Origin: Mobula hypostoma
Lineage: Eukaryota
Length of the DNA stretch: 64,000 nt
Direction of reading: 5' to 3'
Assembly (NCBI RefSeq): GCF_963921235.1
Contig: NC_086108.1
Span: 16,740,001-16,804,000, forward strand
The position numbers and the translations under genes are program-made. The notes beneath the pieces are model-generated. The model had not been told where the DNA came from and did no database searches. It was given only the letters and a program-made list of their open reading frames with translations. Each line of letters begins with the position of its first letter. Position 1 is the first letter of the stretch. Below are positions 298-64,000 of this stretch, one piece after another.

Positions 298-2772
298 AAA
301 GTCATCAAATGTTCCTTGTATGATAATTCTTTCATTTCAGGAATCATCCTTGTGAACCTCCTCTGGACCCTCTCCAATGCCAGCACATCTCTTCTAAGAT
401 GAAGAGCCCAAAACTGTACACAATACTCAAGGCGAGGCCTCACCACTGCCTTATAAGCCTCAGTGTCATGTTCTTGTTCTTGTATTGTAGACCTCTTGAA
501 ATGAATGCTAACACTGCATTTGCCTTCCTTACCATCAACTCAATCTGCAAGTTAACCTTCAGGGTGTTCTGCACAAGGACTCCTAAGTCCCTTTGCATCT
601 CAGATTTTTGGACTTTCTCCCCGTTTAGAAAATAGTCCCCACATTTACTTCTACTACCAAAGTGCATGACCGTGCGTATTCCAACATTATATTTCATTTG
701 TCACTTTCTTGCCCATTCTCCTAATCTGCCTAAGTTCATCTGCATCCTACCTGTTTCCTCAGTACTACCTGCCCCGCCACCAATCTTCGTATCATCTGCA
801 AACTTGGCAACAAAGCCTCTGTTTCATCATCTAAATCATTTATATATAGCATAAAAAGAAGTGGTCCCAACACTGGCCCCTGCAGAGAACCAGACAAGGA
901 TCCTTTAATTCCCCCTCGCTGCCTTCTTCCAATCAGCCAATGCTCTAACCACATTCGTAACTTTCCTATAATAACACGGACTCTTAACTTGGTAAGCAGC
1001 ATCACGTGTGACACCTTGTCAAAGGCCTTCTGAAAGTCCAAATATACAACATCCACTGTATCTTTGTACTTTACTTGTAATCTCCTCAAAGAACTCCAAC
1101 AGGTTCATCAGGCAAGATTTCCTCTGAAGAAAACCATGCTGACTTTAAGGGTCTCGGCCTGAAACGTCGACTGTACCTCTTCCTAGAGATGCTGCCTGGC
1201 CTGCTGCGTTCACCAGCAACTTTGGTGTGTGTTGCTTGAATTTCCAGCATCTGCAGAATTCCTGTTGTCTGACTTTGTCCTATCTTGTCCTGTGCCACCA
1301 AGTACCCCATCAGCTCATCTTTAACAACTGGCTCTAACATCTCCCCAATCACTGAGGTCAGGTTAACTGGTCTATAATTTCCTTTCTGCTGCCTTCCTCC
1401 TTTCTTAAAGTGTGGAGTGACATTTGCAATTTTCCACTCCTCTGGCACTATACCAGAGTCCAACGATTTTTGAAAGATCATTGCTAATGCCGCTACCTCT
1501 TCCAGAACCCTAGGGTGCAGTTCATCTGGTCCAGGTAACTTATGTACTTTTAGGTCTTTCAGCTTTTTGAGCACCTTCTCCCTTGTAATAGTAACTGCAC
1601 CCACTTCTCTTCCTTCACACATTACATCATCTGGCAACACTGCTAGTGTCTTCCACAGTGAAGACTGATGCAAAATACTCATTTAGTTCATATGCCATCT
1701 CCTTGTCCCCGTTATTATTTCTCCTGCCTCATTTTCTAGTGGTCCTATATCCACTCTCATCTCTCTTTAATTTTTGACATACTTTAAAAAGCTTTTATTA
1801 TCCACTTTGATATTATTTGCTAGCTCGCTTTCATATTTCATCTTTTCCCTTCTAATGATTCTTTTTAGTTACTCTCTGTAGGTTTTTAAAAACTTCCCAA
1901 TCTATCTTCCCACTAATTTTTGCTTTGTTCTATGCCCTCTCTTTTGTTTTTACATTAGCTTTGACTTCCCTTGTCAGCCACGGTTGTACTATTTTGCCAT
2001 TTGAGTATTTCTTCATTTTTGGAATATGCGTGTCCTGTACCTTCCCAATTTTTCACAGAAATTTATGGCATTGCTGCTCTGCTGACATCCCTGCCAGCAG
2101 TTCCTTCTAACTTACTTTGGCCAACTCCTCTCTCATACCACTGTAATATCCCTTACTCCATCAAAATACTGCTACATCAGACTTTACTTTCTCCCTATCA
2201 AATTTCAAGTTGAAATCAATCATATTGTGATCACTGGTTCCTAAGGGTTCTTTTACCTTAGGCTCACTAATCACCCCCGGTTCATTACACAACAGCCATT
2301 CTAGTATAGATGATCCCCTAGTAGGCTCAACAACAAACTGCTCTAAAAAACCACCTCTTCAGCATTCAACAGACTCATTCTCTTGAGATCCATTACCAAC
2401 CTGGTTTTCCCAATCGACCTGCATGTTAAAATCTCCCATGACTATCATAACATTGCCCTTTTCACACGTCTTTTCTATTTCCTGCTGTAATCTGTGGTCC
2501 ACCTCCCAGCAACTGTTGGGAAGCCTGTATATAACTGCCATCAGGGTCCTCTTACCCTTGCAATTTCTTAACTCAACCCACAAAGATTCAACATCTTCCA
2601 ATCCCATGTCAAATCTTTCTACTGATTTGATGCCATTCTTTGCCAATAGAGCCACGCCTCCCCCTCTGCCTACCTTCCCATCCCTCCAAGACAATGTGTA
2701 ACCTTGGACATTCAGCTCCCAACTACAGCCATCCTTCAGCCACCATTCAGTGATGGCCACAACATCATACCT
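298..2772 (-). mobile_element. CR1-clade LINE, degraded ORF2 (APE endonuclease + RT)
   Basis: Minus-strand fragments YDVVAITE..GGGVALL..MGDFN (APE), PGPDELHPRVL..GNYRPV, VYLDFQKAFDKV and VRPRLEYCVQFW (RT and C-terminus), with frameshifts. Confidence 0.92.
1147..1268 (+). mobile_element. Penelope-like pseudo-LTR fragment, 5'-truncated inside the hammerhead motif
   Basis: Matches the pLTR end at 25961-26082. Flanked by TSD CTGACTTT (1139-1146, 1269-1276) inside the CR1. Confidence 0.88.
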
Positions 2773-4271: not shown

Positions 4272-6045
4272 TATGAGAAAGTCTGCAGATGCTGGAAAGC
4301 CAAAGCAACACATACAAAATGCTGGAAGAACTCAACAGGTCGGACAGCATCTCGGAAAATGAATAGGCAGTTGATGTTCCGGGCTGAAACCCTTCTTCAG
4401 GACTGAAAAGGAAGAGGGAAGGGGTCAGACTAAAAAGGTGGGGGGAAGGGAAGAAGTATAGCTAGAAGATGATAGGTGGCGGCATGTGGGTAGGAAAGGT
4501 AAAAAGCTAGTGAAGAAGGAACCTGAGAGGAGAGTGGACCACAGGAGAAAGGGAAAGAGGAAGGGATCCAGGGGGAACTGATAGGTAGGTGAGAAGAGAT
4601 AAAAAGCCAGAGGGGAAGGGGAAGGGATTTTTTTTAAACCGGAAGGAAAAATCAATATTCATGTTATCAGGTTGGAGGCAACCCAGGCGGAATATAAGGT
4701 GGTTCTCCTCCACCCTGAGGGTGGCCTCACCTTGGTCTAAAGGCTGATTTATACTTCTATGTAGGCTCTACACCATAGCTGACGCCGTTGTGAGCATTTA
4801 TACTTGTGCGTTGGTGTGTCTGCGTCGCTCTGCAATTCACCGCCAAAATGCTAGTTGGCGGTGGGGTTTCTATGCCACTGTGTTGAGTTTCTTTGTGTAC
4901 TTCAAACAATGGCGACTGAAACTGAGCGCATCATGTTGGAGTTGGAGCTAATAAATGTTGAACAAGAGTTACTTTTATTGAAATTACTGCAACGCAGAAA
5001 AGAGAATAGACGTTGGAGGAGATGGTGTGTACGACCATTGAACGGATTGAGGCAGAAGGAGGGTGAATTTTCTGTGCTTGTCCGGCCACTGAGAGACATG
5101 GACAACGAAATGCATTTCAAATATTTTCGGATGTCGGCAGGTAGATTTGATGATTTGACGAAGCAACCGGAAATGTGATGCTACCAAGTGGACCAATCAC
5201 AGTTGTTGCAGTCTGCGCCGCCGCGATGCGTAGTTACATTTTTGGGGAGGTGCGTGTCAGGCTACGGATTAAGGTACACGGCTACACCATACCTACGGTG
5301 TAGATTCGACGCAGAAATATAAATTGGCCTTGGGGGTGGACATTTCAGAATGGGAATGGGTATTAAAATGTTTGGTCACTGGCAAGTTCCATTATTGTTG
5401 GATGGAGTGGAGATGTTCGATGAAGCAATCCCCAAATTTACACCAGGTCTCACCAACATAGAGGAGGCCGCATCAGGAACAGTGGACACAACAGACGACC
5501 CCAGCAGATTTGCAGGTGGTGTTACCCACTAGGAAAGACTGTTTGGGGCTCTGAATGGAGGAGGAGGAGGAGGTGAATGGGCAGCTGTAGCACCTAGGCT
5601 GCTTGCAGAGATAAGTGCTGGGAGGGAGATTAGCAGGGAGGACAATTAGATTAGGGAATCACATAGGGAACAATCACTATGGAAAGCGAGAGGATTGGGG
5701 TGGGGAGTATAGCTATGTTTAGTAATGGAATCCCTCTGGAGATGGCAGAAGTTGCGGAGGATGATGTGTTGGATGACGTGTTAGGCTCATGAGTTAATAG
5801 GTAAGGACAAGAGGAACTCACTGTTAAAACGGCAGGAAGATCGGGATGAGCGCAAATGATCAGGAAATAGAGAAGATGCAGGTGAGGGCAACATTAATAG
5901 TGGAATAGTGGAATATTCTCTAATGTCCTGGAAAGGAAAGCCACATCCTGGGAACAAATGTGACAAAGGTGAAGGAACTGAGAAAAGGGAATAGCATTTT
6001 TATAAGAAATAGGGCAGGAAGGGGTCCAGTCAAGATAACCATGAG
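4272..6045 (-). mobile_element. Old Penelope-like element (GIY-YIG end + pLTR), interrupted by a Harbinger element
   Basis: EENHLIFRLGCLQPDNMNIDFS matches the PLE C-terminus. pLTR with a decayed hammerhead (agtcCTGAAGAagggtttcagcccGGAAcatcaact) at about 4369-4404. Confidence 0.85.
4741..5330 (+). mobile_element. Non-autonomous PIF/Harbinger transposon with N-terminal transposase remnant
   Basis: TIRs AGGCTGATTTATACTTCT / AGAAATATAAATTGGCCT, preceded by TAA. ORF 4855-5178 contains RRWCVRPLN..GEF..LV..LR..D...F.YFRMS...FDDL, typical of Harbinger transposase N-termini. Confidence 0.8.
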
Positions 6046-14395: not shown

Positions 14396-14616
14396 CTGGT
14401 AATTTTGGAGTAGGATCAGGCTGAGGTAGAACTCACTGAAGGCTAACTTCAGGTCACGAATGTTCCTATGATGCACACGTTCCTTATGGGAGAGAGGGAA
14501 CACAATCCTCCGCTGCCGCAAGTTAGAGAATGCATTGCGGTCCATCTGCACTTCAAGTGTTGACTGCAGCTCGTTCTGGAGTGTAGCAAATCTGCGCTGA
14601 GCTTCAGCAAGTTTTT
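14396..14616 (-). CDS. XPR1: XPR1 internal coding exon (equivalent to human exon 4), SPX domain
   Basis: Translates (E)[73 protein letters not shown]. Acceptor ttacAG, donor GTaagg. 221 bp, joins in frame to the 40680-40781 exon (G|AA = Glu). Confidence 0.97.
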
Positions 14617-15082: not shown

Positions 15083-15379
15083 TTGGAAGGGAAGGAGAAC
15101 CTCAGGAATAGTACATTCAACAGAGATGTAGGCCTGAACAAACATTAATAGCTATGAACTCAAGAATCTTCAGGCCCTGTTGAACTTCATTCCAGTGCCT
15201 CAAAAGAATGGTCTGTCAGTGGTTGATGCATTGGTTTTAATCTTCCAAACTCCCCCAAGTTCAGCAAAATTTTCATTACACTGGAATTGTCATAATTTTT
15301 TTTGGAAATTGATGCTGCCTGACTTGCTGAGCTCCTCCAGCATTTTGTGTGTGTTGGTCTAGATTTTGCTCGTGCTGTT

Positions 15380-18035: not shown

Positions 18036-18096
18036 TACACTACGTTTACTGCTCTACCTTCATCAATGTGTTTAGTCACATCCTCAAAAAATTCAA

Positions 18097-20087
18097 CACT
18101 CACAACACGCTGGAGAAACTCAGCAAGTCGGGCAGCATCCGTGGAAACGATGAGTCGACGTTTCCGGCCGGAACCCTTCATCAGGACTGAAGAGGGAAAG
18201 GGCAGAGGCCCTATAAAGAAGGTGGGGGAGGGTTGGAAGTAGAAGGCTGGTAGATTCAGTTGAAAAACCAGCAATTTGAAAGACAAAGGGGTGGGGGAGG
18301 GGAAGTAGGGAGGTGATAGGCAGCTGGGGGAGGGGGCAGAGTGAAATAGGGATAGAGGAAGGGAGGGGGAGGGAATTACCGGAAGTTGGAGAATTCTAAG
18401 GTCATACCAAGGGGCTGGAGATTATCTGCACGGTTTATGAGGTGTTGCTCCTCCAACCTGAGTTTAGCCTCATCATGGCAGTAGAGGAGGCCATGTATGG
18501 ACATATCTGAATGGGAATGGGAAGCAGAGTTGAAGTGGGTGGCTACCGGGAGATCCTGTCTGTTGTGGCGGATGGAGCGGAGGTGCTCGACGAAGCGGTC
18601 CCCCAATTTGCGTCGGGTTTCACCGATGTAGAGGAGGCCGCACTGGGAGCACCGGATGCAATAGATGACCCCAACAGACTCACAAGTGAAGTGTTGCCTC
18701 ACCTGGAAGGACTGTTTGGGGCCCTGAATGGTGGCAAGAGAGGAGGTGTAGGGACAGGTGTAGCACTTACGCTTACAGGGATAAGTGCTGGGTGGGAGAT
18801 CCGTGGGGAGGGATGTGTGGATAAGGGAGTCGCGGAGGGACGTGTGGATAAGGGAGTCACGGAGGGACCGATCCCTGCGGAAAGCAGAGAGGGGTGGAGA
18901 GGGAAAGATGTGCTTATGTGCTTAGTGGTGGGGTCCTGTTGAAGGCGGCGGAAGTTGCGGAGGATAATGTGCTGGATCCGGGGGCTGGTGGAGCGGTAGG
19001 TGAGGACAAGGGGAACTCTGTCCCTGTTGTGGTGGCGGGAGGATAGGGTGAAGGCCGAAGTGCAGGAAATGGAGGCTATGCGGGTGAGGGCATCATTGAT
19101 GACAGCAGAAGGGAAACCACGATCCTAAAGAAAGAGGACATTTGAAATGTCCTGGAACGGAAAGTCTCATCCTGGGAGCAGATGCGGTGGAGACAGAGGA
19201 ACTTGGAATAGCGAATGGCATTTTTGCATGTGGCGGGGTGGGAAGAGGTATAGTCGAGGTAGTTATGAGAGTCAGTGGGCTTGTAGAAGACGTCAGCGGA
19301 CAGTCTGTCTCCAGAGATGGAGACCGAGAAATCGAGAAAGGGGAGAGAGGTGTCCGCGATAGACCAAGTGAATTTGAGGGCTGGGTGGAAGTTTGAAGTA
19401 AAGTCGATGAAATTGACGAGCTCAGCATGGATGCAGGAAGCAGCACCAATGTAGTCGTCAATGTACCGAAGGAAAATTTGGGGAGCAGTACCAGAATAGG
19501 TTTGGAGCACAGACTGTTCCACATAACCAACAAAGAGGCAGGCATAGCTGGGGCCCATGCGAGTTCCCATAGCTACACCCTTAGTCTGAAGAAAGTGGAA
19601 AGAGCCAAAAGAGAAGTTATTAAGTGTGAGAACCAGTTCCGCCAACGGGAGGAGGGTAGTGGTGGTGGGGAACTGGTGAGGTCTATTATCCAGGAAGTAG
19701 CAGAGGGCTCTGAGGCCTTCTTGATGGGGAATGGAGATGTATAAGGATTGTACATCCATAGTAAAAATGAAGCCGGGGAACTGGAAGTTATTGAAGAGGT
19801 GGAGGGCATGGGATGTATCCTGGATGTAGGTGGGGAGGGACTGAACTATGGGTGACGAAATGGAGTCCAGGTAGGCAGATACAAGTTCGGTGGGACAGGA
19901 GCAGCAGGAACTATGGGTCTACCTGGACAGTCAAGCTTGTGTATCTTGGGGAGGAGGTAAAACCGAGCGGCACGAGCTTAGTGGCTGAGGATGGTTATGG
20001 TGCGGGAAACAATGGTCTGATGTTTTTGGTGGGGTCCTGTTCCAGGGGTAAGTTACTGATCCCAGCATCTGCAGATTATTTTGTGTT
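18097..20087 (-). mobile_element. Penelope-like element (second subfamily), RT + GIY-YIG, with inverted terminal tail
   Basis: ORF 19076-19759 MDVQSLY..GVAMGTRMGPSYA..RYIDD. ORF 18376-18702 GVIYCIRCSQCGLLYIGET. TSD CTCAAAAAATTCAA at 18083-18096 and 20088-20101. Confidence 0.93.
18153..18188 (-). ncRNA. Minimal type I hammerhead ribozyme motif (PLE pLTR)
   Basis: AGUC-CUGAUGA-AGGGUUCCGGCCG-GAAA-CG-UC^GACU. Core intact, stem II weakened. Confidence 0.7.
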
Positions 20088-23000: not shown

Positions 23001-23782
23001 TCCCTTGATTTCACGTTTCTCCTTTGTGAGGTTGATGAACAAATGCTTCCAGCCTCAGACACATGCCACCACTGGCAAAGGAGTAACATGTACAAACATG
23101 TCATATAAACCTACTGACCTGGGTAGCATTTGAAAATCATCTGATTTAATTTTTTTACCAGAAGAGCCAATCCAACCCCTCTGCCCCCTATAATCCAGTT
23201 ATGACCTACTGAAGGCTACCTTAAGAGCGAATAAAAAACTATTCCAACTGAAGTTACAGATGGAATGGGATGCATGCCAGCTCTGGCAGGGTTTGCAGGT
23301 CGTTACTTTGTACAATACAAAACCTAACAACATGAATGGATTCACTCTCAGATGAGCTCAACACCTTTTATGCATGCTTTGAAAGGGAGAATAAAACTAA
23401 CCAATGAAAATCCCTGCAGCATCGGTTGGCCCTGTGATCTCAGTCTTGGAGGTTGATATCAGAACATCTTTCAAGAGGATGAACTCTCTCTGAAGTCAGG
23501 CCCTTTAATCTCCCATTGTGGCAGTGGGAGGCTTCCATCTGCTTCAAAAGGGCAACAATCATACCAGTGCCAAAAGAGAGCAACGATTATTGTCAAGTTG
23601 CACTTACATCTAATGTGATGAAATGCTTTGAGGGGTTGGTCATGGCCAGAATCAAATTCTGCCTAAGCAAGTACCTGAACCTGCTGTGATTTGCCAAGGC
23701 CACAATAGGTTAACAGAGGATACAATTTCATGGGCTCTCTACTTGGCTTTGGATCACCTGGACAATAACAACATCTACATCA

Positions 23783-25675
23783 ACCGTCTCGACTTCACCG
23801 CACCTTGTCCCCATTCACCTCACTCCTTCGGAACGCTCTGCTCTCCACTCCCTCCGCACTAATCCTAACCTTATTATTAAACCCGCTGATAAGGGGGGGT
23901 GCTGTTGTAGTCTGGCGTACTGACCTCTACCTTGCCGAGGCGCAGCGACAACTCGCGGATACCTCCTCTTATTTACCCCTTGATCGTGACCCCACTAAGG
24001 AGCACCAGGCCACTGTCTCCCACATTATCACCGACTTTATCCGCTCAGGGGATCTCCCATCCACTGCTACCAACCTTATAGTTCCCACACCCCGCACTTC
24101 CCGTTTCTACCTCCTACCCAAGATCCACAAACCTGCCTGTCCTGGCCGACCTATTGTCTCAGCTTGCTCCTGCCCCACCGAACTCGTTTCTGCATACCTC
24201 GACACTGTTTTATCACCCCTTGTTCAATCCCTTCCGACCTATGTCGTGACACTTCTCACGCTCTTAAACTTTTCGATGATTTTAAGTTCCCTGGCCCCCA
24301 CCGCTTTATTTTCACCATGGATGTCCAGTCCTTATATACTTCCATCCCCCATCAGGAAGGTCTCAAAGCTCTACGCTTCTTTTTGGATTCCAGACCTAAT
24401 CAGTTCCCCTCTACCACCACTCTGCTCCGTCTAGCAGAATTAGTCCTTACTCTTAATAATTTCTCCTTTTGCTCCTCCCATTTCCTCCAAACTAAAGGTG
24501 TAGCTATGGGCACCCGTATGGGTCCTAGCTATGCCTGCCTTTTTGTTGGGTTTGTGGAACAATCTATGTTCCGTGCCTATTCTGGTATCTGTCCCCCACT
24601 TTTCCTTCGCTACATCGACGACTGCATTGGCGCTGCTTCCTGCACGCATGCAGAACTCATTGACTTTATTAACTTTGCCTCCAACTTTCACCCTGCCCTC
24701 AAGTTTACCTGGTCCATTTCCGACACCTCCCTCCCCTTTCTAGATCTTTCTGTCTCTGTCTCTGGAGACAGTTTATCCACTGATGTCTACTATAAGCCTA
24801 CTGACTCTCACAGCTATCTGGACTATTCCTCTTCTCACCCTGTCTCTTGCAAAAACGCCATCCCCTTCTCGCAATTCCTCCGTCTCCGCCGCATCTGCTC
24901 TCAGGATGAGGCTTTTCATTCTAGGACGAGGGAGATGTCTTCATTTTTTAAAGAAAGGGGCTTCCCTTCCTCCACTATCAACTCTGCTCTTAAACGCATC
25001 TCCCCCATTTCACGTACATCTGCTCTCACTCCATCCTCCCACCACCCCACTAGGAATAGGGTTCCCCTGGTCCTCACCTACCACCCCACCAGCCTCCGGG
25101 TCCAACATATTATTCTCCGTAACTTCCGCCACCTCCAAGGGGATCCCACCACGAAGCACATCTTTCCCTCCCCCCCCCCTGCATTCCGCAGGGATCGCTC
25201 CCTACACAACTCCCTTGTCCATTCGTCCCCCCCATCCCTCCCCACTGATCTCCCTCCTGGCACTTATCCGTGTAAGCGGAACAAGTGCTACACATGCCCT
25301 TACACTTCCTCCCTTACCACCATTCAGGGCCCCAAACAGTCCTTCCAGGTGAGGCATCACTTCACCTGTGAGTCGACTGGGGTGATATACTGCGTCCGGT
25401 GCTCCCGATGTGGCCTTTTGTATATTGGTGAGACCCGACGCAGACTGGGAGACCGCTTTGCTGAACATCTACGCTCTGTCCGCCAGAGAAAGCAGGATCT
25501 CCCAATGGCCACACATTTTAATTCCACATCCCATTCCCATTCTGACATGTCTATCCACGGCCTCCTCTACTGTAAAGATGAAGCCACACTCAGGTTGGAG
25601 GAACAATACCTTATATTCCGTCTGGGTAGCCTCCAACCTGATGGCATGAACATCGACTTCTCTAACTTCCGCTAA
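23783..25675 (+). pseudogene. PLE RT/GIY-YIG ORF with two frameshifts (G-run about 23895; about 24244)
   Basis: Homology moves from ORF 23805..24434 (to ..SLPTYV) into ORF 24164..25675 (RDTSHAL..NIDFSNFR*). The downstream ~475 codons are open. Confidence 0.9.
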
Positions 25676-25950
25676 GGCCCCACCTCCCCCTCGTACCCCA
25701 TCTGTTACTCATTTTTATGCACACATTCTTTCTCTCACTCTCCTTTTTCTCCCTCTGTCCCTCTGAATATACCTCTTGCCCATCCTCTGGGTCACCCCCC
25801 CCTCCTGTCTCATGATCCTCTCGTATCCCCTTTTGCCTATCACCTGTCCAGCTCTCGGCTCTATCCCTCCCCCTCCTGTCTTCTCCTATCATTTTGCATC
25901 TCCCCCTCCCCCTCCAGCTTTCAAATCCCTTACTCACTCTTCCTTCAGTT

Positions 25951-25986
25951 AGTCCTGACGAAGGGTCTCGGCCTGAAACGTCGACT
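25951..25986 (+). ncRNA. Minimal type I hammerhead ribozyme (PLE pLTR)
   Basis: Stem I AGUC/GACU, core CUGACGA, stem II (A)GGGU-CUCG-GCCU, then GAAA-CG-UC with palindromic ACGU. Predicted cleavage after C25982. Confidence 0.85.
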
Positions 25987-27796
25987 GCGCCTCTTCCTAT
26001 AGATGCTGCTTGGCCTGCTGCGTTCACCAGCAACCTTGATGTATGTTGCTTGAATTTCCAGCATCTGCAGAATTCCTGTTGTTTTTATCTACATCACGGT
26101 TCTGTTTACTGATTACAGCTCAGCATTCAACACAATCACACAAGCTCCAAAACCCAGACCTCTGTACCTCCCTTTGCAACTGGATCCTTGACTTCCTCAT
26201 TGGGAGACCACAGTCGGTGCAGATCAGAAATACCACCTCCTCCTTGCTGGGAATCAATACTGGCACACCTCAAGGATATGTACTTAGTCCACTGCTCTAC
26301 TCTCCCCACACCCAGAACTGGGTGGTCAGGCACAGCTCAAACACCATCTATAAATTTGCTTATGACACAACTACTGTCGGCAGAACTACTGTGATGCAGA
26401 GGCGCAGAGGACTGATATCGATCAGCTGGATGAATGCTGTAGCAACAACCTTGCACTCAATATCAGTGAGACCAAGGAACTTTTTGTGGTCTTCAAGAAG
26501 TCCTCATCGAGGGATCGGCAGTGAAAAGGACAAGCAGTTACAAATTCCTGGGTGTCAACATCTTGGAAGATCCATCCTGGTGTTAACTATTGATGCAATT
26601 ACAAAGAATATATGACAGCAACAGCTCAGCTTCATTAGGAGTTTGAGGAGACTTGGTATGTCATCTAAGACTTTCACAAATTTCTTTGGAGGTAACGTGG
26701 AGAAACTTACAACTGGTTACACCACTGTCTGGTATGGCCAGCTCCATAACGGTATGAGCCTCCCCAGTACTGAGGACAGTTTCAAAAGATGATGCCTCAA
26801 AAAGGCGACATCCATCATTATGGACCTCCATCGCCCAGGATGTGCCCTCTTCTCACTTCTACCATCAAGGAGGAGAATCAAATGCCTGAAGGCACACATG
26901 CAAAGTTTCAGGATCAGCTTCTTCCCCTCCACCATCAGATTTCTGAATGGACAATGAACCCACGTACACTACTTCACTATTTTTTGCTCTCTTTTTGCAC
27001 TATTTATTCAAATATAAATATATAGGTATTTTATTGTAATTTATTATTATTGTGTATTGCTGTCACAAAACAATAATTTTCACAACATACTGTATGCCAG
27101 TGATATTAAATCTGATTCTGATTCGCATTCTGCCCACCTGCCTGTCTTTTCAATAGGATGTGTTTCCTTAGAATGATTCTTTGAAAAATTCAATCAAATT
27201 AGTCATACAGGATCCACAGTATTCTCCCTAGCTTTCTCATCAATCTGCTTTTCTATGTTCTATAATACCTTTTCCTACCTTCTTTAATACTTTTCCTTGA
27301 CAGGAGCTGAGCATTCATCTTCTCTACATGCATATATACTGGATTTTAAACAATTAAACAATTTCTGCTCAGTCATGAGATCCCAAAATCTTAATGCAAT
27401 ATGTACTGCATCATTTCCAGATGCTTTTGTCCAATCAGTTATTTCTTCTTTGTGATCTGAAGACAGCACCTACGAGTATTCTGTTTACCTTAGCACGGCA
27501 TCATTGCTGAGCCAAATGTCTTCACCCAGTGCCCAAATGTGTCTCTTCCTTTTCACGGGCAGTTCCTCAGAATGGAAGATGATTTATTTCTACTCCAGTT
27601 CAGAGGAATGCTGAATGCCTATGTATCAATTCTTTTAACATGTTTTTTTAAACAGGAAAGTGAAATGCATGTTTTTTTATCTATCCACCAAAAATTTCCT
27701 GAAATTTGGACAATTTTATCCTTTAAACTTTAAAGGAAGTAGTTCAGAACATTAGAGTCAGAGTTATAGAACACTACAACTCAGAAACAGGCCCTT

Positions 27797-40679: not shown

Positions 40680-40781
40680 CTGAATAGAATGTATTGATTT
40701 TGGCAAGTTCCTTTTCGCAGAACTGGAAGAATTTCTCTTCAAACCTGGCATAATATCTTTTAACGGTATCTTCATCTGTAA
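40680..40781 (-). CDS. XPR1: XPR1 internal coding exon (equivalent to human exon 3), SPX domain
   Basis: Translates (V)[33 protein letters not shown](E), near-identical to vertebrate XPR1. Acceptor ccacAG at 40782-83, donor GTaaca at 40679-78. 102 bp, phase 1-1. Confidence 0.96.
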
Positions 40782-41124: not shown

Positions 41125-41220
41125 ATAAAGTCTGCAAATGCTGGAAATCCAAAGCAATGCACACAATCTATTTCTACAGACGTTGCCTGATCTGCTGGGT
41201 TCCTCTGGCATTTTGTGTGT
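41125..41220. mobile_element. Old inverted PLE pLTR mini-insertion
   Basis: Minus-oriented tail (TCTGCAAATGCTGGAAATCC) joined to a plus-oriented pLTR piece ending GCATTTTGTGTGT. Confidence 0.65.
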
Positions 41221-41549
41221 ATTATTTGGGTTAGTGCCCAAATTATTTGCCTAAAATGTTTACTGTGATTCTAAGCACCATGGTCCAATCATATTTCAAT
41301 GAAGAAAACGCTCATCATACGCAGAGATTATTTTTGCAACTACAGTTGTAAAATTAACTGGATTCTCCTATGAGCAGAACTACTTTCTCCATAAAATACC
41401 TCGTCCAGCTTATTCATTATTTGATAGACTTGTCATCTCCAATTTTTCTCTCTAGTGAACTGGTGAAAAGCTGCAAAATGTGGTACACTTTGTCCAGTAT
41501 TTCATTGTTCTTTTAAGAGTAGAGAAGCAAAACTCTCCACAGTGTGCCA

Positions 41550-42975: not shown

Positions 42976-43140
42976 TCAGGCCCTTTTCCTTTTTTTTGTT
43001 ATTTTGAAACTGTAAAAGATGGAAATAAAAAAGTAATCTTGCTTAAAATATTAAAGAAATGTGTCATCTTTAACTTTATGCCTTTTGGAAATCAGGTCAT
43101 CTTTTACTCGTTTAGCTATTCACAGTAACAGAAATTTTGA
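42976..43140 (+). mobile_element. Tc1 right-TIR fragment of the 16550-18035 family
   Basis: Near-identical to 17842-18004. Confidence 0.85.
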
Positions 43141-45415: not shown

Positions 45416-45610
45416 TCTTCTCCTATCATTTTGGATCTCCCCCTCCCACTTTCAAATCTCTTACTGGCTCTTCCTTCAGTTAGTCCTGACGAAGGGTCTC
45501 GGCCCGAAACATCGACTGTACCTCCTCCTAGAGATGTTGCCTGGCCTGCTGCGTTCACCAGCAACTTTGATGTGTGTTGCTTGAATTTCCAGCAACTACA
45601 GAATTCCTCA
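45416..45610 (+). mobile_element. PLE pLTR fragment containing a hammerhead (45482-45517)
   Basis: AGTCCTGACGAAGGGTCTCGGCCCGAAACATCGACT. A G>A change breaks the ACGU palindrome. Confidence 0.85.
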
Positions 45611-46311
45611 TGATGCAGACTGGGGTGCTTTGGTGAAGAATGGCCCTGTGACCAGATTAGCTAACAGCAGTGTGCTGAACTGAACCAAACTTAATACTAC
45701 TGAACTCTTGGTCTGATGTTGGATATTGTATGTGTTGTTCACTCTATTTTTGCTGTTTGTGCAATTCGTTCTTTTTTCATGCATTGGGTGTTTGGTGACT
45801 TCTTAATCTGGTTCCAAGATATTTCTTTGCTTCATGTCTGTCTGGGGAGGATGAATCTCCAAGTTGTATTCTGTATGCATCATAGACAATAAATATACTT
45901 TGAATCTCTGAAGGGCTTGTTACCGTACTGTATCTGTAATAAAATAAATTGAATACTTTCTAGAATATTTCCACAGATTAAATCATGATTCCCAGAAAGT
46001 GAAAAAACAAATATGACCCACCAAGTTCTGTTACCATTTTCTGAGTTACAGGATTAAGCAGTTTCAGAATTTAAAAACAGCAAAATTTACACTGGATGAC
46101 ATTTCTGCTTCAGATGAAAGTTAAAGATCCAGTATCCAGTTGCACAATTTTGAGACACAACACAGCAGTTTTTCCATTCTAGTGGCCTGAATTTACCCAC
46201 CAAACATTAACACAAACAACAGGAATTCTGCAGATGCTGGAAATTCAAGCAACATACATCAAAGTTGCTGGTGAACGCAGCAGGCCAAGCAGCATCTATA
46301 GGAAGAGGCGC

Positions 46312-46347
46312 AGTCGACATTTCAGGCCGAGACCCTTCGTCAGGACT
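46312..46347 (-). ncRNA. Hammerhead motif, GAAAUGUC variant
   Basis: AGUCCUGACGAAGGGUCUCGGCCUGAAAUGUCGACU on the minus strand. Confidence 0.75.
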
Positions 46348-48445
46348 AACTGAAGGAAGAGTGAGTAAGGGATTTGAGTAAGGGCATACTGACCTCTACC
46401 TTGCTGAGGCGCAGCGACAACTCGCGGATACCTCCTCTTATTTACCCCTCGATCGTGACCCCACTAAGGAGCACCAGGCCATTGTCTCCCACACCATCAC
46501 CGACTTTATCCGCTCAGGGGATCTCCCATCCACTGCTACCAACCTTATAGTTCCCACACCCCGCACTTCCCGTTTCTACCTCCTACCCAAGATCCACAAA
46601 CCTGCCTGTCCTGGCCGACCTATTGTCTCAGCTTGCTCCTGCCCCACCGAACTCGTTTTTCTGCATACCTCGACACTGTTTTATCACCCCTTGTTCAATC
46701 CCTTCCGACCTATGTCGTGACACTTCTCACGCTCTTAAACTTTTCGATGATTTTAAGTTCCCTGGCCCCCACCGCTTTATTTTCACCATGGATGTCCAGT
46801 CCTTATATACTTCCATCCCCCATCAGGAAGGTCTCAAAGCTCTACGCTTCTTTTTGGATTCCAGACCTAATCAGTTCCCCTCTACCACCACTCTGCTCCG
46901 TCTAGCGGAATTAGTCCTTACTCTTAATAATTTCTCCTTTTGCTCCTCCCATTTCCTCCAAACTAAAGGTGTAGCTATGGGCACCCGTATGGGTCCTAGC
47001 TATGCCTGCCTTTTTGTTGGGTTTGTGGAACAATCTATGTTCCGTGCCTATTCTGGTATCTGTCCCCCACTTTTCCTTCGCTACATCGACGACTGCATTG
47101 GCGCTGATTCCTGCACGCATGCAGAACTCGTTGACTTTATTAACTTTGCCTCCAACTTTCACCCTGCCCTCAAGTTTACCTGGTCCATTTCCGACACCTC
47201 CCTCCCCTTTCTAGATCTTTCTGTCTCTGTCTCTGGAGACAGCTTATCCACTGATGTCTACTATAAGCCTACTGACTCTCACAGCTATCTGGACTATTCC
47301 TCTTCTCACCCTGTCTCTTGCAAAAACGCCATCCCCTTCTCGCAATTCCTCCATCTCCGCCGCATCTGCTCTCAGGATGAGGCTTTTCATTCTAGGACGA
47401 GGGAGATGTCTTCATTTTTTAAAGAAAGGGGCTTCCCTTCCTCCACTATCAACTCTGCTCTTAAACGCATCTCCTCCATTTCACGTACATCTGCTCTCAC
47501 TCCATCCTCCCACCACCCCACTAGGAATAGGGTTCCCCTGGTCCTCACCTACCACCCCACCAGCCTCCGGGTCCAACATATTATTCTCCGTAACTTCCGC
47601 CACCTCCAACGGGATCCCACCACTAAGCACATCTTTCCCTCCCCCCTCTCTCTGCATTCCGCAGGGATCGCTCCCTACACAACTCCCTTGTCCATTCGTC
47701 CCCCCCATCCCTCCCCACTGATCTCCCTCCTGGCACTTATCCGTGTAAGCGGAACAAGTGCTACACATGCCCTTACACTTCCTCCCTTACCACCATTCAG
47801 GGCCCCAAACAGTCCTTCCAGGTGAGGCATCACTTCACCTGTGAGTCGACTGGGGTGATATACTGCGTCCGGTGCTCCCGATGTGGCCTTTTATATATTG
47901 GTGAGACCCGACGCAGACTGGGAGACCGCTTTGCTGAACATCTACGCTCTGTCCGCCAGAGAAAGCAGGATCTCCCAGTGGCCACACATTTTAATTCCAC
48001 ATCCCATTCCCATTCTGACATGTCTATCCACGGCCTCCTCTACTGTAAAGATGAAGCCACACTCAGGTTGGAGGAACAACACCTTATATTCCGTCTGGGT
48101 AGCCTCCAACCTGATGGCATGAACATCGACTTCTCTAACTTCCGCTAAGGCCCCACCTCCCCCTCGTACCCCATTTGTTACTCATTTTTTATGCACACAT
48201 TCTTTCTCTCACTCTCCTTTTTCTCCCTCTGTCCCTCTGAATATACCTCTTGCCCATCCTCTGGGTCACCCCCCCTCCTTGTCTTTCTTCCCGGACCTCC
48301 TGTCTCATGATCCTCTCGTATCCCCTTTTGCCTATCACCTGTCCAGGTCTCAGCTCTATCCCTCCCCCTCCTGTCTTCTCCTATCATTTTGCATCTCCCC
48401 CTCCCCCTCCAGCTTTCAAATCCCTTACTCACTCTTCCTTCAGTT

Positions 48446-48481
48446 AGTCCTGACGAAGGGTCTCGGCCTGAAATGTCGACT
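48446..48481 (+). ncRNA. Hammerhead motif, GAAAUGUC variant
   Basis: Identical to the inverted copy at 46312-46347. Confidence 0.75.
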
Positions 48482-49519
48482 GCGCCTCTTCCTATAGATG
48501 CTGCTTGGCCTGCTGCGTTCACCAGCAACTTTGATGTATTAACACAAACAGATTATTTGGTGTAGTGCTTCCTAAATTACAACTATGACTACACTTCAAT
48601 TGCACTTTACTGGTGTTAAAATACTCTGGCATTCTTCTAGGTCATAAAAGGAATAACACAAATCCAAATTGCTGATTTTTATACTGAGCACAAAGGAAGC
48701 CAGAGAAGCGGCTGTTTCTAAGCAAATGTTCAGCACTTGCCTCCATACTGATTCAGTACTGTAAACATCACCATCAGTCTTGTTCACTTCATGAAATGAA
48801 ATCAATTCTTCAAGATAGGTACTAACTGGCATCTTATCCCCTTATATTAATAATTCAGGAAGGTGTTATGATTCGTTGTTTTAGTTTAAAGAGAAGGCGG
48901 AGGATTGTGCAAAATGCATGCTAATTGCTGAAGACGTGAACATTGTTGGTACAGAATATCTATTCTACATCCATTAATTTCAATTGGTAATTCAATGTGT
49001 GAACAGCACGGAGAATTTACAATGTGATATGTACTCTATCATTTAAATGCATGTATTACAACATACTGTCTAATTAACCTAAGTGGCTGATAACCTGCAC
49101 CAGCACATTGGTAATCTTTGCTAGAATTCACAAAGCTGTGCTTTAGAAAATAGAGTACATAGTTACAAAGACGGAATGATTTGAACTTTTAACCTTGAGT
49201 TAGGTCTCAGTCAGGGTGGCAACTGTGTGATTCTTTAAAAATTGATTTATTGGTTATTAGGAGAAAAGTAAACAAATTTCTCCAATCACCAACCAATGAC
49301 CTTTGGTGAAAGGATAACATGAAGAATGACAACAAAAAGATAGCATATTGAAATTATATTCTAGCATAGTTTGGAAAGCACAAAATCAATAACTGTTCTA
49401 AAACACATTAATATCCAAGTGCACATTCGTAATCTGACTTCCCAGAGCAGTCTTGCACATTTAAATCATTCCTTCTCTCCTTTAGGAAGAGCCTGCCAAA
49501 GCAGTGATTAGGAAGTAAA

Positions 49520-49724
49520 TCATGAACACAAGAAAATATGCAAATGATAGAAATCCAAAGCAACACACACAAAATGCTGGAGGAACTCAGCAGGTCAGGC
49601 AGCATCTATGGAAATGAACCAACGGTCGACCTTCCAGGCCGAGGCCCTTCTTCAGAACTGGAAAGTAAGAGGAAAGATGCCAGAATAAAAAGATGGGGAA
49701 GGGGAAGGGGAAGAGGGAGTATGT
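49520..49724 (-). mobile_element. Old solo PLE pLTR
   Basis: Decayed hammerhead (TTCTGAAGAAGGGCCTCGGCCTGGAAGGTCGAC on minus). TSD TGATTAGGAAGTAAA at 49505-19 and 49725-39. Confidence 0.8.
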
Positions 49725-51610: not shown

Positions 51611-51859
51611 TACTAAGACAATCAAGAATGCCTCACTGAATGAGAAGATCGCGGGTGCACCCATCTGAATATGTTTCTATATATAATCTCAGTTGTCACT
51701 TTAAGACAGGCAGACTTAAATTTATGTTAACAGCTTTCATAATATCAAGACACTCCAAACGCATTTTAAAGAACAAAAAGGTATTTAACAAACGTATCAA
51801 ATGAAACATGGCAGCCAATTTGAGCAAAGCAGGCCGTGTCAGAAAAGAGATTTATATTA

Positions 51860-52057
51860 AACACAAGAGATTCTGCAGATCCTGGAAATCCAAAGCAACA
51901 TGCACAAGAGTCTGGAGGAACTCAGGTCAGGCAGCATATATGGAAAAAGAGTAAAAAGTCGCCTTTTAGTTTGAGTCCAGAAGGGTCCGAAATGTTGACT
52001 GTTTATTCTTTTCCATGGATGCTGCCTGACCTGCTGAGTTCCTCCAGCACTTGTGTG
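51860..52057. mobile_element. Old inverted PLE pLTR mini-insertion
   Basis: Minus arm with full tail, junction in a decayed hammerhead (about 51955-52000), plus arm ending CCAGCACTTGTGTG. Confidence 0.75.
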
Positions 52058-53904
52058 CTTCGGGGGCAAATCAAGGTCCTGAAAGGCTCCTTAAAAATGC
52101 AAGTCTTCTTACTTTCTTGCTTCCTTTCATGGATCATAGGCACCTGTCATCACTTGTACAGAAGAGGCAGTTGAACGATGGAGAATAGATAACACAAAAG
52201 AATCCACTCTTCAGGTGATAGTGTTTCAGTGAAAAACTAATCTCCTGAACAGTATCCTTTACTGAATGTTTGAGTATATATTAAAATACCTGGTAAATAC
52301 TTGAAACATGAATTAAGCAGCTCTTGGTACCATGACAAATTTCTATCTGCTTTCTTATTTTCAAGAGGCAATGAAACTAAATATATTTTTACCTGTGGTG
52401 GGGTTGTGGCATAAAGAGTGTATTTTATGTTTTTTATTGCTGGAAATGGGTCAGATAAGGTAAGAAATGAATTCCTGGGTTATGCCTAAAACTATTGTTT
52501 TTGGATATCAACAGCTAAATAAACAACACTTGTGATGTTTATAACTTCACAGTCAGATTACATCAAGAATGATAACCAATGAACTCAAAAAATTACCACA
52601 ATTAATAGATGATGTGAAATAAATGAGAAAAGCAGAACATTAATTTCACCTTCCACTGCTTCAGATGAAATCACTAATAAAGCACAGTCACACAGGAGAT
52701 CTAATAGCCTACCTTTAAGTTATCTTAGAATTTTAATAAGAATTTTAATAAGAATAAAAAAGGCAGTTATTCTCCTCATCATGTATCCAGGGAAGCCATC
52801 CATTAGTTCTTTTCTTTCTTTCCTTATTTCACTGTACCAGAGCAACTCCTCCTCCTTCATATGTCTGTCAACACGCCACTGACTTTTTTTCTTTCTTTTT
52901 GGTAGTAAAATTTAATCAAAGGTAAATTGAAGTCATCAGTTAACCATCATCACCATGAATGCAAAGTGGGAGAAAACATGAACATTCGAGGTCCCGCCAC
53001 TGCCTGCAAGGAGTTTGTACGTCCTCCCCATGACTGCGTGGGTTTCCTCTGGACTTAAAATCAGGGGAGTGCTGGACAGAAGGGCCTGTTCTGCACTGTA
53101 ATTTAACAAATAAATAGATAAACAGACAAACAAACCCACAGAATTATTGAGAGAACTGGCAAGTATTGCAAGGAAGCATCGATCCAGATCCAGAAGGATT
53201 AGAGAGCTGCAAGACAGAAGCACTGACTGCTAGAGTTCGTTGTGTAGTTTTTACTTAACTGATGTCAAATACCTTTGGGAGGCACAATGTGCAGCCTTGC
53301 AGCTCTAGCCACCCTGGTTGAATCCTGATATGTGGTGCTATCTGTGGAAAGGACAAGGATGTGGAATTGATTGCATTTACAACAGTAGCCTCCTGTGGTA
53401 CAACGATTCTATGATTTCATTGTGAGGCCAGTCAACCTATCAATGTATTGGAAACAATCAGATATCATAGCTTATACTGGAAATGCATGAGTTAACTAAG
53501 GAGAGGCAGCACACATTAGTTACTGGTAAAACAAAGTCTGATTAAGCTTATGGAATTATTTAATGAGGCAACAGAAAAACTGGCCAGGATACCAACCTCA
53601 CAGAATTGCCTGCATATGTAGCAGCAGATGTGACAGGCTGCTACATATTCCAACTTGTGGATCAGTTTTAAGTTATCCATTCTTTCCCCAGCCAGTTATA
53701 AATGTTGGAAGACAATTTCATGAATATTGGGAAGAGTATGTTCCACCATATCCCATCTTCAGTTATGCCAGAGTCCAGCAAATGAATATGAAAGATAAGC
53801 CTCAAGCACTTGCAAGCATCTTCAGCCAGAAATAACATGGACGAAATAGGATGCATCCTATAGAGCTGAAAGATGCAATGAAATAAAAGGCAAATCTTTA
53901 ATGT

Positions 53905-56884: not shown

Positions 56885-58449
56885 AATTTTTTAACAAGAT
56901 TTTATAGCTATTGTTGTCTTGTGGTTCCTTTCTCGGTTGTCAGCCATCATTCTGAATGACCATCAAGGAGGTGGGACATCTATCACTCATGGCCCAGAGA
57001 TTATGAGGAGGACTCAGCAGGCTGCTTTGCCATCTACTATCCCAGCAGCTGTTCCTCACCAGCATGGTAGGCTGACTGCATAAAACTTCTGCAAGTAGTC
57101 ATTGGGATCAATCATATTTTCTGCCATCTGACAATGTGACATGGATCTGCTGCACTAATCCCTTAGTAAGATGTCCCATTAGGTCTCTCCATTGTCACTG
57201 TATTACTGGAGTGGGTGTCTGGAATAGAGATTGCCAAATGTGCGAAAGGAAGTAACAAAAAAAGTGAAGGAGAATTTGAAGGGATGAAGAAGTACCGACT
57301 GACATTGAAGGTTTGTTTGCCTGAAGGAGATTTCATCAGATACCTATTATTGAGAAGCTGCCTTTACACCGAATTGTTTCTGGTAGAAGTTTACTCATCT
57401 GTACTTTGGCTATCAATATTAGTGTGCGCAAATTTGCACATTAGACAAAGAATCTGAAATGCAAGTATAAGAGGCAAAAAATGGCAATTTGGGAGTACAG
57501 CAAAACTACACCAGAAATCAACACTTTCAATCTAAAAAATCTTTCAGCAAATTCAACAATGGCTAGGAAACTGCAGCTTTTGCATTAGTGAATAAAAACA
57601 TAATTATATCTTACACCTATCCACATCAAGACAGCTTTACAAAATTGTATGTAAAATATGCACAAGGAATAGAATGTAACCTATCTATAATTGATCACTG
57701 CCTACCCAATTGATTTAAAGAGCAGCTATTATTATCTCTAAGCATAATTCCTTCCCTTTTCCAACTTAATAGATAGTCAACATCTTTTGCAGCTTTGAAC
57801 TACAAATTCATGTGACTGCAAAAACTCAGTGAATCAGTGAGGAACCTATTTAACCTGCTGTTTTGAAATTTTGTTTTACTCTTGTCAGGCTTCACTATCT
57901 TCCAGGCTACAATTTTTCTATTAATATGAGACATAATTTGAAATCATAAAATAGACAAGATAGGTGAATACCAATACATATGCCATTCATTACTGTAAGA
58001 CAACAATTCCACTTTTTTGGAAAAACACTAAGGTTAAGTGAATACTTCCGAAGCTCAGCTGTCAAAGCAACAGCTCAAAGCTACTGTCAAACGACCTTGC
58101 TGCAGTGAAGCAAACAAAGGAGAAATGCAAATATAGATGCACATAGAGACCTTAGTTCACTCCCTGCAATTCGACCGAATTGCAGTAAAAAGAAGATCAG
58201 AAAAAAAAGCAAATCCTTTCGGAATGACCACTCCCAGTTGAATTTAGCTTAAGGATTTCACTCAGTGCTGCTGCTATTTTAAACGCTGGGAACAGTAGCA
58301 ACAGATTTTATGAATTTTGTAAAAATTTCTTGAGCAACCTATTTAATGCGCTTTTTTGTAATACAAGTTAAACTAACTAGTTCACATGGCCAACCAATTG
58401 ATACCAACTGCAAAAGATTCTAGATGAAAAAAATCATTATTTAAACAGA

Positions 58450-58638
58450 AACAACAGGAATTCTGCAGATGCTGGAAATTCAAGCAACACACATCAAAGT
58501 TGCTGGTGAACGCAGCAGGCCAGGCAGCATCTCTAGGAAGAGGTACAGTCGACGTTTCAGGCCGAGACCCTGACGAAGGGTTACCTCTTCCTAGAGATGC
58601 TGCCTGGCCTGCTGCATTCACCAGCAACTTTGATGTGT
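58450..58638. mobile_element. Inverted PLE pLTR mini-insertion
   Basis: Minus arm 58450-~58571, plus arm to 58638. TSD ATTATTTAAACAGA at 58436-49 and 58639-52. Confidence 0.92.
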
Positions 58639-63440: not shown

Positions 63441-63891
63441 TGATAATTATCTTGAGATTCAATTTCTTTCAGTCATTTACAGGAAAAAATGCCAGCGATT
63501 ACCTGTCAGGATTTGATTCCCACTGCTGTTTGTTAGGAGTTTACACGTTCAGCCTGTGACCACATGGGTATCCTCTCCAAATATGTATGGTCAGGGCCTG
63601 TGTTAGTGCACTGTGGGCATGCTATATTGGTGCTGGAAACATCACAACATTTGTGAGCTGCTTGCAGCACAATCCTAGGGCTATGTTGGTCGTTGACATA
63701 ATATAAAACACTTCACAGTATGTTTCAATGTACATGTGACAAATAAAGCTCATTTATTCAATCTACGGAAAAAGCAGAACAAATTATCTCCACAAACAAC
63801 AGGAATTCTGCAGATGCTGGAAATTCAAGCAACATACATCAAAGTTGCTGGTGAACGCAGCAGGCCAGGCAGCATCTATAGGAAGAGGCGC

Positions 63892-63927
63892 AGTCGACGT
63901 TTCAGGCCGAGACCCTTCGTCAGGACT
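63892..63927 (-). ncRNA. Minimal hammerhead ribozyme
   Basis: Exact reverse complement of the 25951-25986 motif. Confidence 0.85.
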
Positions 63928-63963
63928 AGTCCTGACGAAGGGTCTCGGCCTGAAACGTCGACT
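63928..63963 (+). ncRNA. Minimal hammerhead ribozyme
   Basis: Identical to the 25951-25986 motif. Confidence 0.85.
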
Positions 63964-64000
63964 GCGCCTCTTCCTACAAATTATCTCCACGATAGTTTTC

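What the first reader, a model, noticed from the sequence alone, without database searches (positions are those of the whole stretch)
25951..25986. Family of minimal hammerhead ribozymes in PLE pseudo-LTRs inside XPR1 introns
Seen: the 36-nt motif AGTC CTGACGA AGGGTCTCGGCCT GAAA CG TC GACT, or close variants, at 18153(-), 25951(+), 45482(+), 46312(-), 48446(+), 63892(-) and 63928(+). Decayed or truncated copies lie near 1147, 4369, 49625, 51960 and 58547. Established: CUGANGA/GAAA/NUH is the hammerhead core, and PLE pLTRs are known to carry minimal hammerheads whose stem III is reduced to a palindrome (here ACGU) and which cleave mainly as dimers. Inference: minus-strand copies are transcribed in XPR1 pre-mRNA and could cleave only when two copies pair.
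Basis: partly seen in the sequence, partly recalled or inferred. Interest (0 to 1): 0.7.

Follow-up and report, generated by a model that had tools for sequence, protein, structure and literature searches.

The report
Penelope retrotransposon hammerhead relics in ray
The repeated motif is the already described minimal hammerhead motif at the end of Penelope-type jumping genes, left here as truncated copies in introns of a ray-like fish's XPR1 gene, where it is likely inert, so this is an ordinary example of a known kind.

Summary
The motif is real at all eleven named places and far above chance. It fits the minimal type I hammerhead of Penelope-like elements (PLEs) described by Cervera and De la Peña (2014). 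The focal copy lies about 100 nt inside the 3' end of a 5'-truncated, frameshifted PLE (RT, CX4CxxC linker, GIY-YIG; 23783-26086, 10-bp target duplication). The seven main copies come from five insertions. Two XPR1 exons lie on the minus strand, so the focal motif is antisense to XPR1. None of the six sense copies examined is both intact and free: two have a broken core, one is truncated, one lacks the 10.1-11.1 pair, and two are predicted locked in perfect inverted repeats. No compensatory change was found in stems I or II (0 of 8 pairs, 7 distinct copies). Family-wide variation is mostly CpG decay, including catalytic G12. Cleavage of XPR1 pre-mRNA is not supported. The ribozyme likely served only the parent element's RNA; cleavage is untested. 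The scan reported this kind before, in this and other shark or ray genomes. Two small leads: a predicted blocking hairpin upstream of the core, and junctions clustered at the motif's 5' edge.

The parts
25951..25986 (+). Focal minimal type I hammerhead motif: stem I 4 bp, CUGACGA, one extra A, stem II 4 bp (G10.1-U11.1 wobble) with 4-nt loop, GAA, palindromic ACGU, C17 at 25982. Antisense to XPR1.
25936..25950 (+). Upstream segment predicted to pair with the core and the 5' side of stem II (blocking hairpin) in the young subfamily
23783..26086 (+). 5'-truncated endonuclease-positive Penelope-like element carrying the focal motif in its 3' end; one terminal repeat only
23816..25675 (+). Broken PLE ORF: RT, CX4CxxC linker, GIY-YIG; lacks about the first 185-210 residues of 800-residue relatives; frameshift near 24220-24270
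23773..23782 (.). Left target-site duplication, 10 bp
26087..26096 (.). Right target-site duplication, 10 bp
26045..26084 (+). About 40-nt PLE 'tail': present on this copy and on inverted arms, absent from the 3' ends at 48539 and 58636
   Evidence: PMC8557442 Fig. 2 legend
46214..48540 (.). One insertion: inverted 164-bp arm (46214-46377, minus) plus 5'-truncated PLE (46383-48540, plus), 13-bp target duplication; arms identical over 124 bp
46312..46347 (-). Motif copy, sense to XPR1, C15.2U; predicted fully paired with the 48446 arm
48446..48481 (+). Motif copy, antisense to XPR1, same C15.2U variant
63794..63976 (.). One palindromic insertion, two arms joined at the first base of stem I, 15-bp target duplication
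63892..63927 (-). Intact motif, sense to XPR1, predicted locked in a perfect hairpin (-110.8 kcal/mol, z -16.75)
63928..63963 (+). Intact motif, other arm of the same palindrome
45482..45517 (+). Motif in a 3'-end stub (45416-45608), antisense; G10.1-C11.1 intact, palindrome broken (G16.2A)
18153..18188 (-). Motif at the 3' end of an older PLE (about 18089-20014, 76% identical to the focal copy); sense to XPR1; core letters intact, G10.1.G11.1 mismatch
4369..4404 (-). Decayed motif (A13G, G16.2A, G1.1A) at the 3' end of an old PLE remnant (about 4269-6052)
49624..49659 (-). Decayed motif (A13G, C15.2G) in a 3'-end stub with a 15-bp target duplication
58449..58636 (.). Inverted stub insertion, 14-bp target duplication; minus arm starts at stem II, plus arm internally deleted; no whole motif
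1147..1268 (+). 3'-end stub starting one base before stem II, 8-bp target duplication; first core box missing
51858..52093 (.). Old inverted stub with a deleted motif starting at 51974(+)
40680..40781 (-). XPR1 (SLC53A1-like) coding exon, residues 41-74, AG/GT bounded; exon 3 by recalled human numbering
14396..14616 (-). XPR1 coding exon, residues 75-148, AG/GT bounded; exon 4 by recalled human numbering

Best explanation
The motif is the minimal type I hammerhead carried near the 3' end of an abundant Penelope-like retrotransposon family, and the copies in these XPR1 introns are truncated insertion relics that are likely inert. Shown: each copy lies at the same place in a PLE 3' end, with target duplications, inverted arms and tail typical of PLE insertions. 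Inferred from published work on other PLEs: in the RNA of a complete tandem element, two motifs would pair through ACGU and stem I, probably helped by the element's protein, and cut weakly after C17. Inferred here: most genomic copies were reverse-transcribed from uncut or re-ligated RNA, then decayed neutrally. XPR1 pre-mRNA holds no sense copy that is both intact and free to fold, so it would not be cut.
For: RT and GIY-YIG in one broken ORF (Pfam E 6e-5 and 1e-4, both below the curated cut-offs). 723 relatives, the best named ones from rays and sharks, 95% identity to a Mobula hypostoma protein. CX2-5CxxC linker in 7 of 7 relatives checked and in the window ORF. Shared words of 8-15 bp at the ends of 6 of 12 insertions tested; random flank pairs gave 10 bp or more in 9 of 2000. 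Anatomy matches the min-HHR of PMC4209133: no helix III, extra base between 9 and 10.1, G10.1-C11.1, palindromic 15.2-16.2. 10 of 14 terminal-repeat pieces span the cut site and none starts at 25983 or ends at 25982, in line with uncut RNA being the main substrate for PAc (PMC11167929). In contigs of 4 public runs, 7 of the 10 listed changes inside the motif are CpG-type transitions, and G12A occurs at 2-17% of depth, similar to a loop CpG at 2-9%.
Against: No compensatory base change among 7 distinct copies, covariation score 0.113 against 0.120 shuffled, so the fold rests on likeness to the published consensus, not on local covariation. Rfam did not recognise the motif. Nearest-neighbour folding puts the dimer hammerhead at -9.5 kcal/mol against -28.3 for the cofold minimum, though such models ignore tertiary contacts and protein help. 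In run X20, 68% of depth has A at stem I position 1.4 with no partner change listed (9 rows of that table were not shown). No clade tree was built. Depth sums are not copy numbers. Inertness in vivo is not shown.
Confidence: 0.88

Rival explanations
1. Minus-strand copies pair in XPR1 pre-mRNA and cut it, tuning XPR1 expression or splicing.
For: Six motif-bearing copies examined are sense to XPR1 and inside the gene. 63892 has an intact core. Conserved intronic type I hammerheads exist in amniotes (PMC6155905 passages).
Against: 4369 and 49624 have A13G, 58547 lacks CUGANGA, 18153 has G.G at 10.1-11.1. 63892 folds into a perfect hairpin and all 36 nt of 46312 pair with 48446 in the minimum-energy fold of the 2.3-kb insertion. 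The sense copies with complete core boxes are 17.6 and 28 kb apart. Published min-HHR monomers did not cleave and dimers cleaved weakly (PMC4209133). The two young insertions differ by only 25 substitutions in 2132 bp, so they are recent, not ancient conserved elements.
Confidence: 0.03
2. The motif is a hammerhead-shaped sequence that no longer cuts even in active elements of this family; it is kept as a protein-binding or folding signal, or is a passenger.
For: Young copies have a G10.1-U11.1 wobble and a core (GACG) that can pair with CGUC, giving an inactive rod as monomer minimum. No compensatory change. In PAc, ribozyme mutants did not affect insertion in vitro and no reads ended at the cut site. 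Naiad PLEs thrive without hammerheads (PMC8557442).
Against: The core boxes and stems are kept between subfamilies whose bodies are only 66-76% identical, while N7 and loop II vary. PAc's motif does cleave when the element's protein is added.
Confidence: 0.25
3. The short copies form a separate non-autonomous retrozyme or SINE family moving as small circular RNAs.
For: Most copies are 120-200-bp pieces without ORF. Animal retrozymes are proposed derivatives of PLE terminal repeats and were found in the one cartilaginous fish sampled (bioRxiv 10.64898/2026.07.22.740005).
Against: No direct tandem of motif-bearing units among the window copies. Pieces share the PLE 3' end and differ in 5' start, the pattern of 5' truncation. 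Four copies are still joined to PLE ORF sequence.
Confidence: 0.06

Closest known systems
Minimal hammerheads (min-HHR) in terminal repeats of metazoan PLEs (Cervera and De la Peña 2014, PMC4209133)
   Same: Type I topology, no helix III, palindromic 15.2-16.2, extra base between 9 and 10.1, stem I of 4-5 bp, mostly single dispersed copies from truncated PLEs, some pairs on opposite strands.
   Different: Host is a cartilaginous fish, not named in the text I read or in supplementary file 2 (file 1 could not be searched). Stem II is 4 bp rather than the 7-8 bp of the Schistosoma motifs. Young copies have a G-U wobble at 10.1-11.1.
Neptune/Nematis-type C-terminal EN+ PLEs (Craig et al. 2021, PMC8557442)
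   Same: RT followed by CX2-5CxxC linker and GIY-YIG with internal CxxC; 5' truncation, inverted 5'-truncated arm, 30-40-bp tail at one end.
   Different: No complete copy in the window; Neptune versus Nematis not resolved because no tree with named references was possible.
PAc hammerhead of the anole Poseidon element (Frangieh et al. 2024, PMC11167929)
   Same: Motif in the terminal repeat upstream of the tail; genomic copies keep the uncut junction.
   Different: PAc is Penelope/Poseidon, a clade without the Zn-finger linker, and its ORF starts inside the ribozyme; the ORF start of this family is not in the window.
Non-LTR retrozymes (Li et al. 2026, bioRxiv 10.64898/2026.07.22.740005)
   Same: Type I hammerhead related to PLE terminal repeats.
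   Different: Retrozymes are direct tandem repeats with a ribozyme in each unit; none is seen here.
Conserved intronic hammerheads of amniotes, RECK and others (PMC6155905 passages)
   Same: Type I hammerhead inside a host intron.
   Different: Those are conserved single loci; these are recent, repeated, decaying transposon ends, with the best free copy antisense to the gene.

Membership tests
PLE minimal hammerhead (min-HHR) | Core boxes CUGANGA and GAAA, then UH | tested here: met
   Intact in 7 of the 9 full-length copies aligned; A13G in 4369 and 49624
PLE minimal hammerhead (min-HHR) | No helix III; palindromic 15.2-16.2 | tested here: met
   ACGU in 4 of 9 copies; CpG-type changes in 4, C15.2G in 1
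PLE minimal hammerhead (min-HHR) | Extra base between 9 and 10.1; G10.1-C11.1 pair | tested here: met
   Extra A in 9 of 9. G-C in 2, G-U in 4, G.G in 1 of 7 distinct copies; C11.1 holds 20-76% of depth in 4 runs
PLE minimal hammerhead (min-HHR) | Stems I and II supported by covariation | tested here: inconclusive
   94.6% of cells paired but 0 of 8 pairs with a two-sided change; only 7 related copies
PLE minimal hammerhead (min-HHR) | Located in the terminal repeat of a PLE | tested here: met
   About 280 nt after the GIY-YIG stop and 100 nt before the element end; joined to ORF sequence in 4 copies
PLE minimal hammerhead (min-HHR) | Weak self-cleavage as dimer or with element protein | not testable with these tools
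   Needs in vitro assay; public runs were contigs only
EN+ Penelope-like element | One ORF with RT then C-terminal GIY-YIG | tested here: met
   Pfam hits below curated cut-offs, strong match to 800-residue relatives
EN+ Penelope-like element | 5' truncation, inverted arm, tail at one end, target duplication | tested here: met
Neptune or Nematis clade | CX2-5CxxC linker between RT and EN | tested here: met
   Window ORF and 7 of 7 relatives; definition
Neptune clade specifically | RT phylogeny with named Neptune elements | not tested
   No named reference sequences were obtained
Rfam hammerhead families | Match to a covariance model | tested here: not met
   No hammerhead hit at E up to 1 in the window
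Non-LTR retrozyme | Direct tandem units each with a ribozyme | tested here: not met
   None among window copies; whole genome not available
Domesticated intronic hammerhead | Sense to the host gene, intact and free to fold | tested here: not met
   0 of 6 sense copies
Domesticated intronic hammerhead | Conserved at the orthologous position across species | not testable with these tools
   No vertebrate genomes searchable

The most novel reading that the evidence does not exclude
The young PLE family carries a switchable hammerhead: 15 nt just upstream pair with the core and keep the 3' copy off, while a transcript starting within about 5 nt of stem I would fold the ribozyme; the same structure would stall or redirect reverse transcription, which is why insertion junctions cluster at the motif's 5' edge and not at the cut site. 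Basis: P(core paired upstream) 0.84 and 0.82 in 25951 and 45482, reached by 1 and 6 of 300 shuffles, with stems I and II at 0.6-0.9 when only 5 upstream bases are kept; 3 of 6 young insertions have a junction at 25950-25962; 4 of 4 opposite-strand joints in public contigs have one side at 25952-25959. Against: 3 older copies show no excess over shuffles (238, 153, 186 of 300), the two young copies are one lineage, and self-complementary sequence can make such joints as artefacts.
Probability: 0.12. Interest if true: 0.5.

Novelty: new member of a known kind. Interest (0 to 1): 0.12.

Why it matters
As it stands it matters little: it extends a known PLE motif to a ray-like host and shows that introns there are littered with its relics. 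The role of PLE hammerheads is still open (PMC8557442, PMC11167929), and a very abundant young family offers many copies for counting where insertions start and end relative to the cut site. If the blocking hairpin and the junction cluster held genome-wide, they would give a testable account of what the motif does in transposition.

Tried and rejected
Whole genome: none held, so no genome-wide counts or orthologous-site checks. Outside copies for covariation: a loose pattern in viral contigs gave 55 loci, 0 of 55 with similarity to the terminal repeat; a stricter pattern gave 0 in metagenome and 0 in prokaryote genome contigs; the PLE protein found no confirmed locus in metagenome or viral contigs. 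Rfam: only a chance-level mir-2131 hit on the inverted stub at 51927-52029. Expression: no RNA holder listed among 23 runs, all kept as contigs, so no ends or strand could be read; this is no evidence either way. A second laying on 53 bases listed no variant rows. Other XPR1 exons: tblastn with 3 shark and ray proteins found only residues 41-74 and 75-148; best match for the first 17 residues of the three neighbouring exons was 7 of 17, so they lie outside the window. The first exon-2 check failed through an indexing slip and was repeated. No target duplication found for 4 of 12 insertions, and only 6-7 bp for 2. A conserved blocking hairpin across all subfamilies was rejected. Truncation at the cut site was rejected for the window's 14 pieces (BLAST ends are blurred for old copies). 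Look-up of earlier findings by sequence gave nothing.

Full report
Observation. The 36-mer is at 25951-25986(+). The core pattern gave 10 matches against 1.61 expected; a stricter one gave 3 against 0.00. Rfam listed no hammerhead family at E up to 1.

Anatomy. The focal motif reads as stem I (AGUC/GACU), CUGACGA, one extra A, stem II (GGGU/GCCU, loop CUCG), GAA, ACGU, C17 at 25982. This matches the min-HHR of Cervera and De la Peña, who list the extra base between 9 and 10.1, the G10.1-C11.1 pair and the palindromic 15.2-16.2 as recurring features (PMC4209133; parts 1-2 of 4 of the text read; supplementary file 2 searched, file 1 not searchable). The young copies have U at 11.1; C holds 20, 29, 40 and 76% of depth in four public runs.

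The carrier. The motif lies about 280 nt after the stop of an ORF with RT and GIY-YIG matches (both under Pfam's cut-offs) and about 100 nt before the element's end. The protein has 723 relatives, led by Mobula hypostoma (95%), Hypanus, Rhincodon and Chiloscyllium entries. It carries the CX2-5CxxC linker that marks Neptune and Nematis and is absent from Penelope/Poseidon (PMC8557442, passages only). The focal element spans 23783-26086 between 10-bp duplications, lacks about 185-210 N-terminal residues and has a frameshift. It has one terminal repeat and no partner motif. A 97.7% identical copy at 46383-48539 has an inverted 164-bp arm at its 5' side; the two arms are identical over 124 bp and share C15.2U. 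The insertions at 63794-63976 and 58449-58636 are inverted stubs with 15- and 14-bp duplications. 3' ends fall at about 26043 or 26084, the 40-nt tail described for PLEs.

Host gene. Two exons on the minus strand match XPR1 residues 41-74 (100%) and 75-148 (98.6%) of a Mobula birostris protein, with AG/GT ends. No other exon is in the window, so all copies are intronic if the gene continues on both sides, which is inferred. The host is most likely a ray close to Mobula. The focal motif is antisense to XPR1.

Could XPR1 pre-mRNA be cut? Six motif-bearing sense copies were examined. 4369 and 49624 have A13G; 58547 begins at stem II; 18153 has a G.G mismatch at 10.1-11.1. 63892 is intact but folds into a perfect hairpin with 63928 (-110.8 kcal/mol, z -16.75). 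All 36 bases of 46312 pair with 48446 in the predicted fold of the insertion. In 150-nt flanking context, stem I probability was 0.00 and stem II at most 0.08 for 9 of 9 copies. Published metazoan min-HHR monomers did not cleave and dimers cleaved weakly; 1 of 9 Xenopus retrozyme dimers cleaved (bioRxiv 10.64898/2026.07.22.740005, parts 1-3 of 5 read; supplements not seen). The host-regulation idea is therefore unsupported.

Selection. Among 7 distinct copies 94.6% of stem cells pair, but 0 of 8 pairs show a two-sided change and the covariation score equals shuffles. The sample is small and related, so this is inconclusive for the fold, but it gives no support. Core boxes and stems persist between subfamilies whose bodies are 66-76% identical, which suggests selection on the parent elements. 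Thousands of contigs per run carry the repeat (7067, 4935, 92 and 15942 laid). Of 10 listed changes inside the motif, 7 are CpG-type transitions, including catalytic G12 (role from PMC6155905 passages) at 2-17% of depth, against 2-9% for a loop CpG. Nine rows of that table were not shown and depth is not copy number. The pattern fits neutral decay after insertion. In run X20, 68% of depth has A at stem I position 1.4 with no partner change listed.

Mechanism. Shown: PLE origin, position, truncation, strand and damage of each copy. Inferred from other PLEs: a complete tandem element makes RNA with two motifs that pair through ACGU and stem I and cut weakly after C17, probably with help from the element's protein, as for PAc, where the ribozyme cut only with protein, mutants still inserted, and uncut RNA was the main substrate (PMC11167929, parts 1-2 of 4 read). 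Consistent with that, 10 of 14 terminal-repeat pieces here span the cut site and none begins at 25983 or ends at 25982. Folding models disfavour the dimer hammerhead (-9.5 against -28.3 kcal/mol) but ignore tertiary contacts.

Side leads. In the two young-lineage copies tested, 15 upstream bases pair with the core more than shuffled flanks do (1 and 6 of 300), and removing them lets stems I and II form; three older copies show no such excess. Three of six young insertions have a junction at 25950-25962, and 4 of 4 opposite-strand joints among 12 listed joints in public contigs have one side at 25952-25959. Both are weak and open to artefact.

Novelty. The motif class, its carrier and its dimer model are in print. 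Five searches of the held library (listings only, apart from the papers named) showed no paper devoted to ray or shark PLE hammerheads, although the 2026 preprint sampled one cartilaginous fish; Repbase and subscription journals were not searchable. Earlier notes of this scan reached the same reading in this genome and in other shark or ray genomes; these are unchecked AI notes and not independent support. Verdict: real, a new member of a known kind, likely inert at this locus; interest 0.12.

Noticed in passing
window 25950-25962 equivalents: insertions at 1147, 58570, 63927: Three of six young insertions have their 5' or inversion junction within 13 nt at the 5' edge of the motif; opposite-strand joints in public contigs fall at 25952-25959.
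   Followed up: partly
window 25936-25966 and 45467-45497: Upstream bases are predicted to pair with the catalytic core in the young subfamily, beyond shuffled controls; not so in three older copies.
   Followed up: partly
window 24245-25672: After ray and shark entries (62-95%), the next named relatives of the PLE protein are from a coral and molluscs at 46-52%; no bony fish is named among the best 120. Many rows are unnamed. Patchy retention or horizontal transfer not tested.
   Followed up: no
window 23330-23772 and 26097-26615: The focal PLE appears to sit inside a decayed LINE RT whose right part resembles, by eye, the RT at 62789-63559 (RVT_1 plus ALKBH8_N).
   Followed up: no
window 33572-35677 (+): Open 701-codon LINE-type RT frame (RVT_1 E 2e-33), a well-preserved retrotransposon piece; CR1-like by recall only.
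   Followed up: no
window 17109-17815 (+) and 60676-61110 (+): DNA transposon remnants: Tc3-type HTH and DDE_1 matches.
   Followed up: no
window 44198-44592 (-) and 42849-42980 (-): Further decayed PLE ORF pieces with no motif found nearby.
   Followed up: no
window 63928-63976 (+): The right arm of the palindromic insertion stops at the equivalent of 25999, short of both usual 3' ends.
   Followed up: no
window 41125-41231 and 15308-15365: PLE 3'-end stubs too short to contain the motif, one of them inverted.
   Followed up: partly
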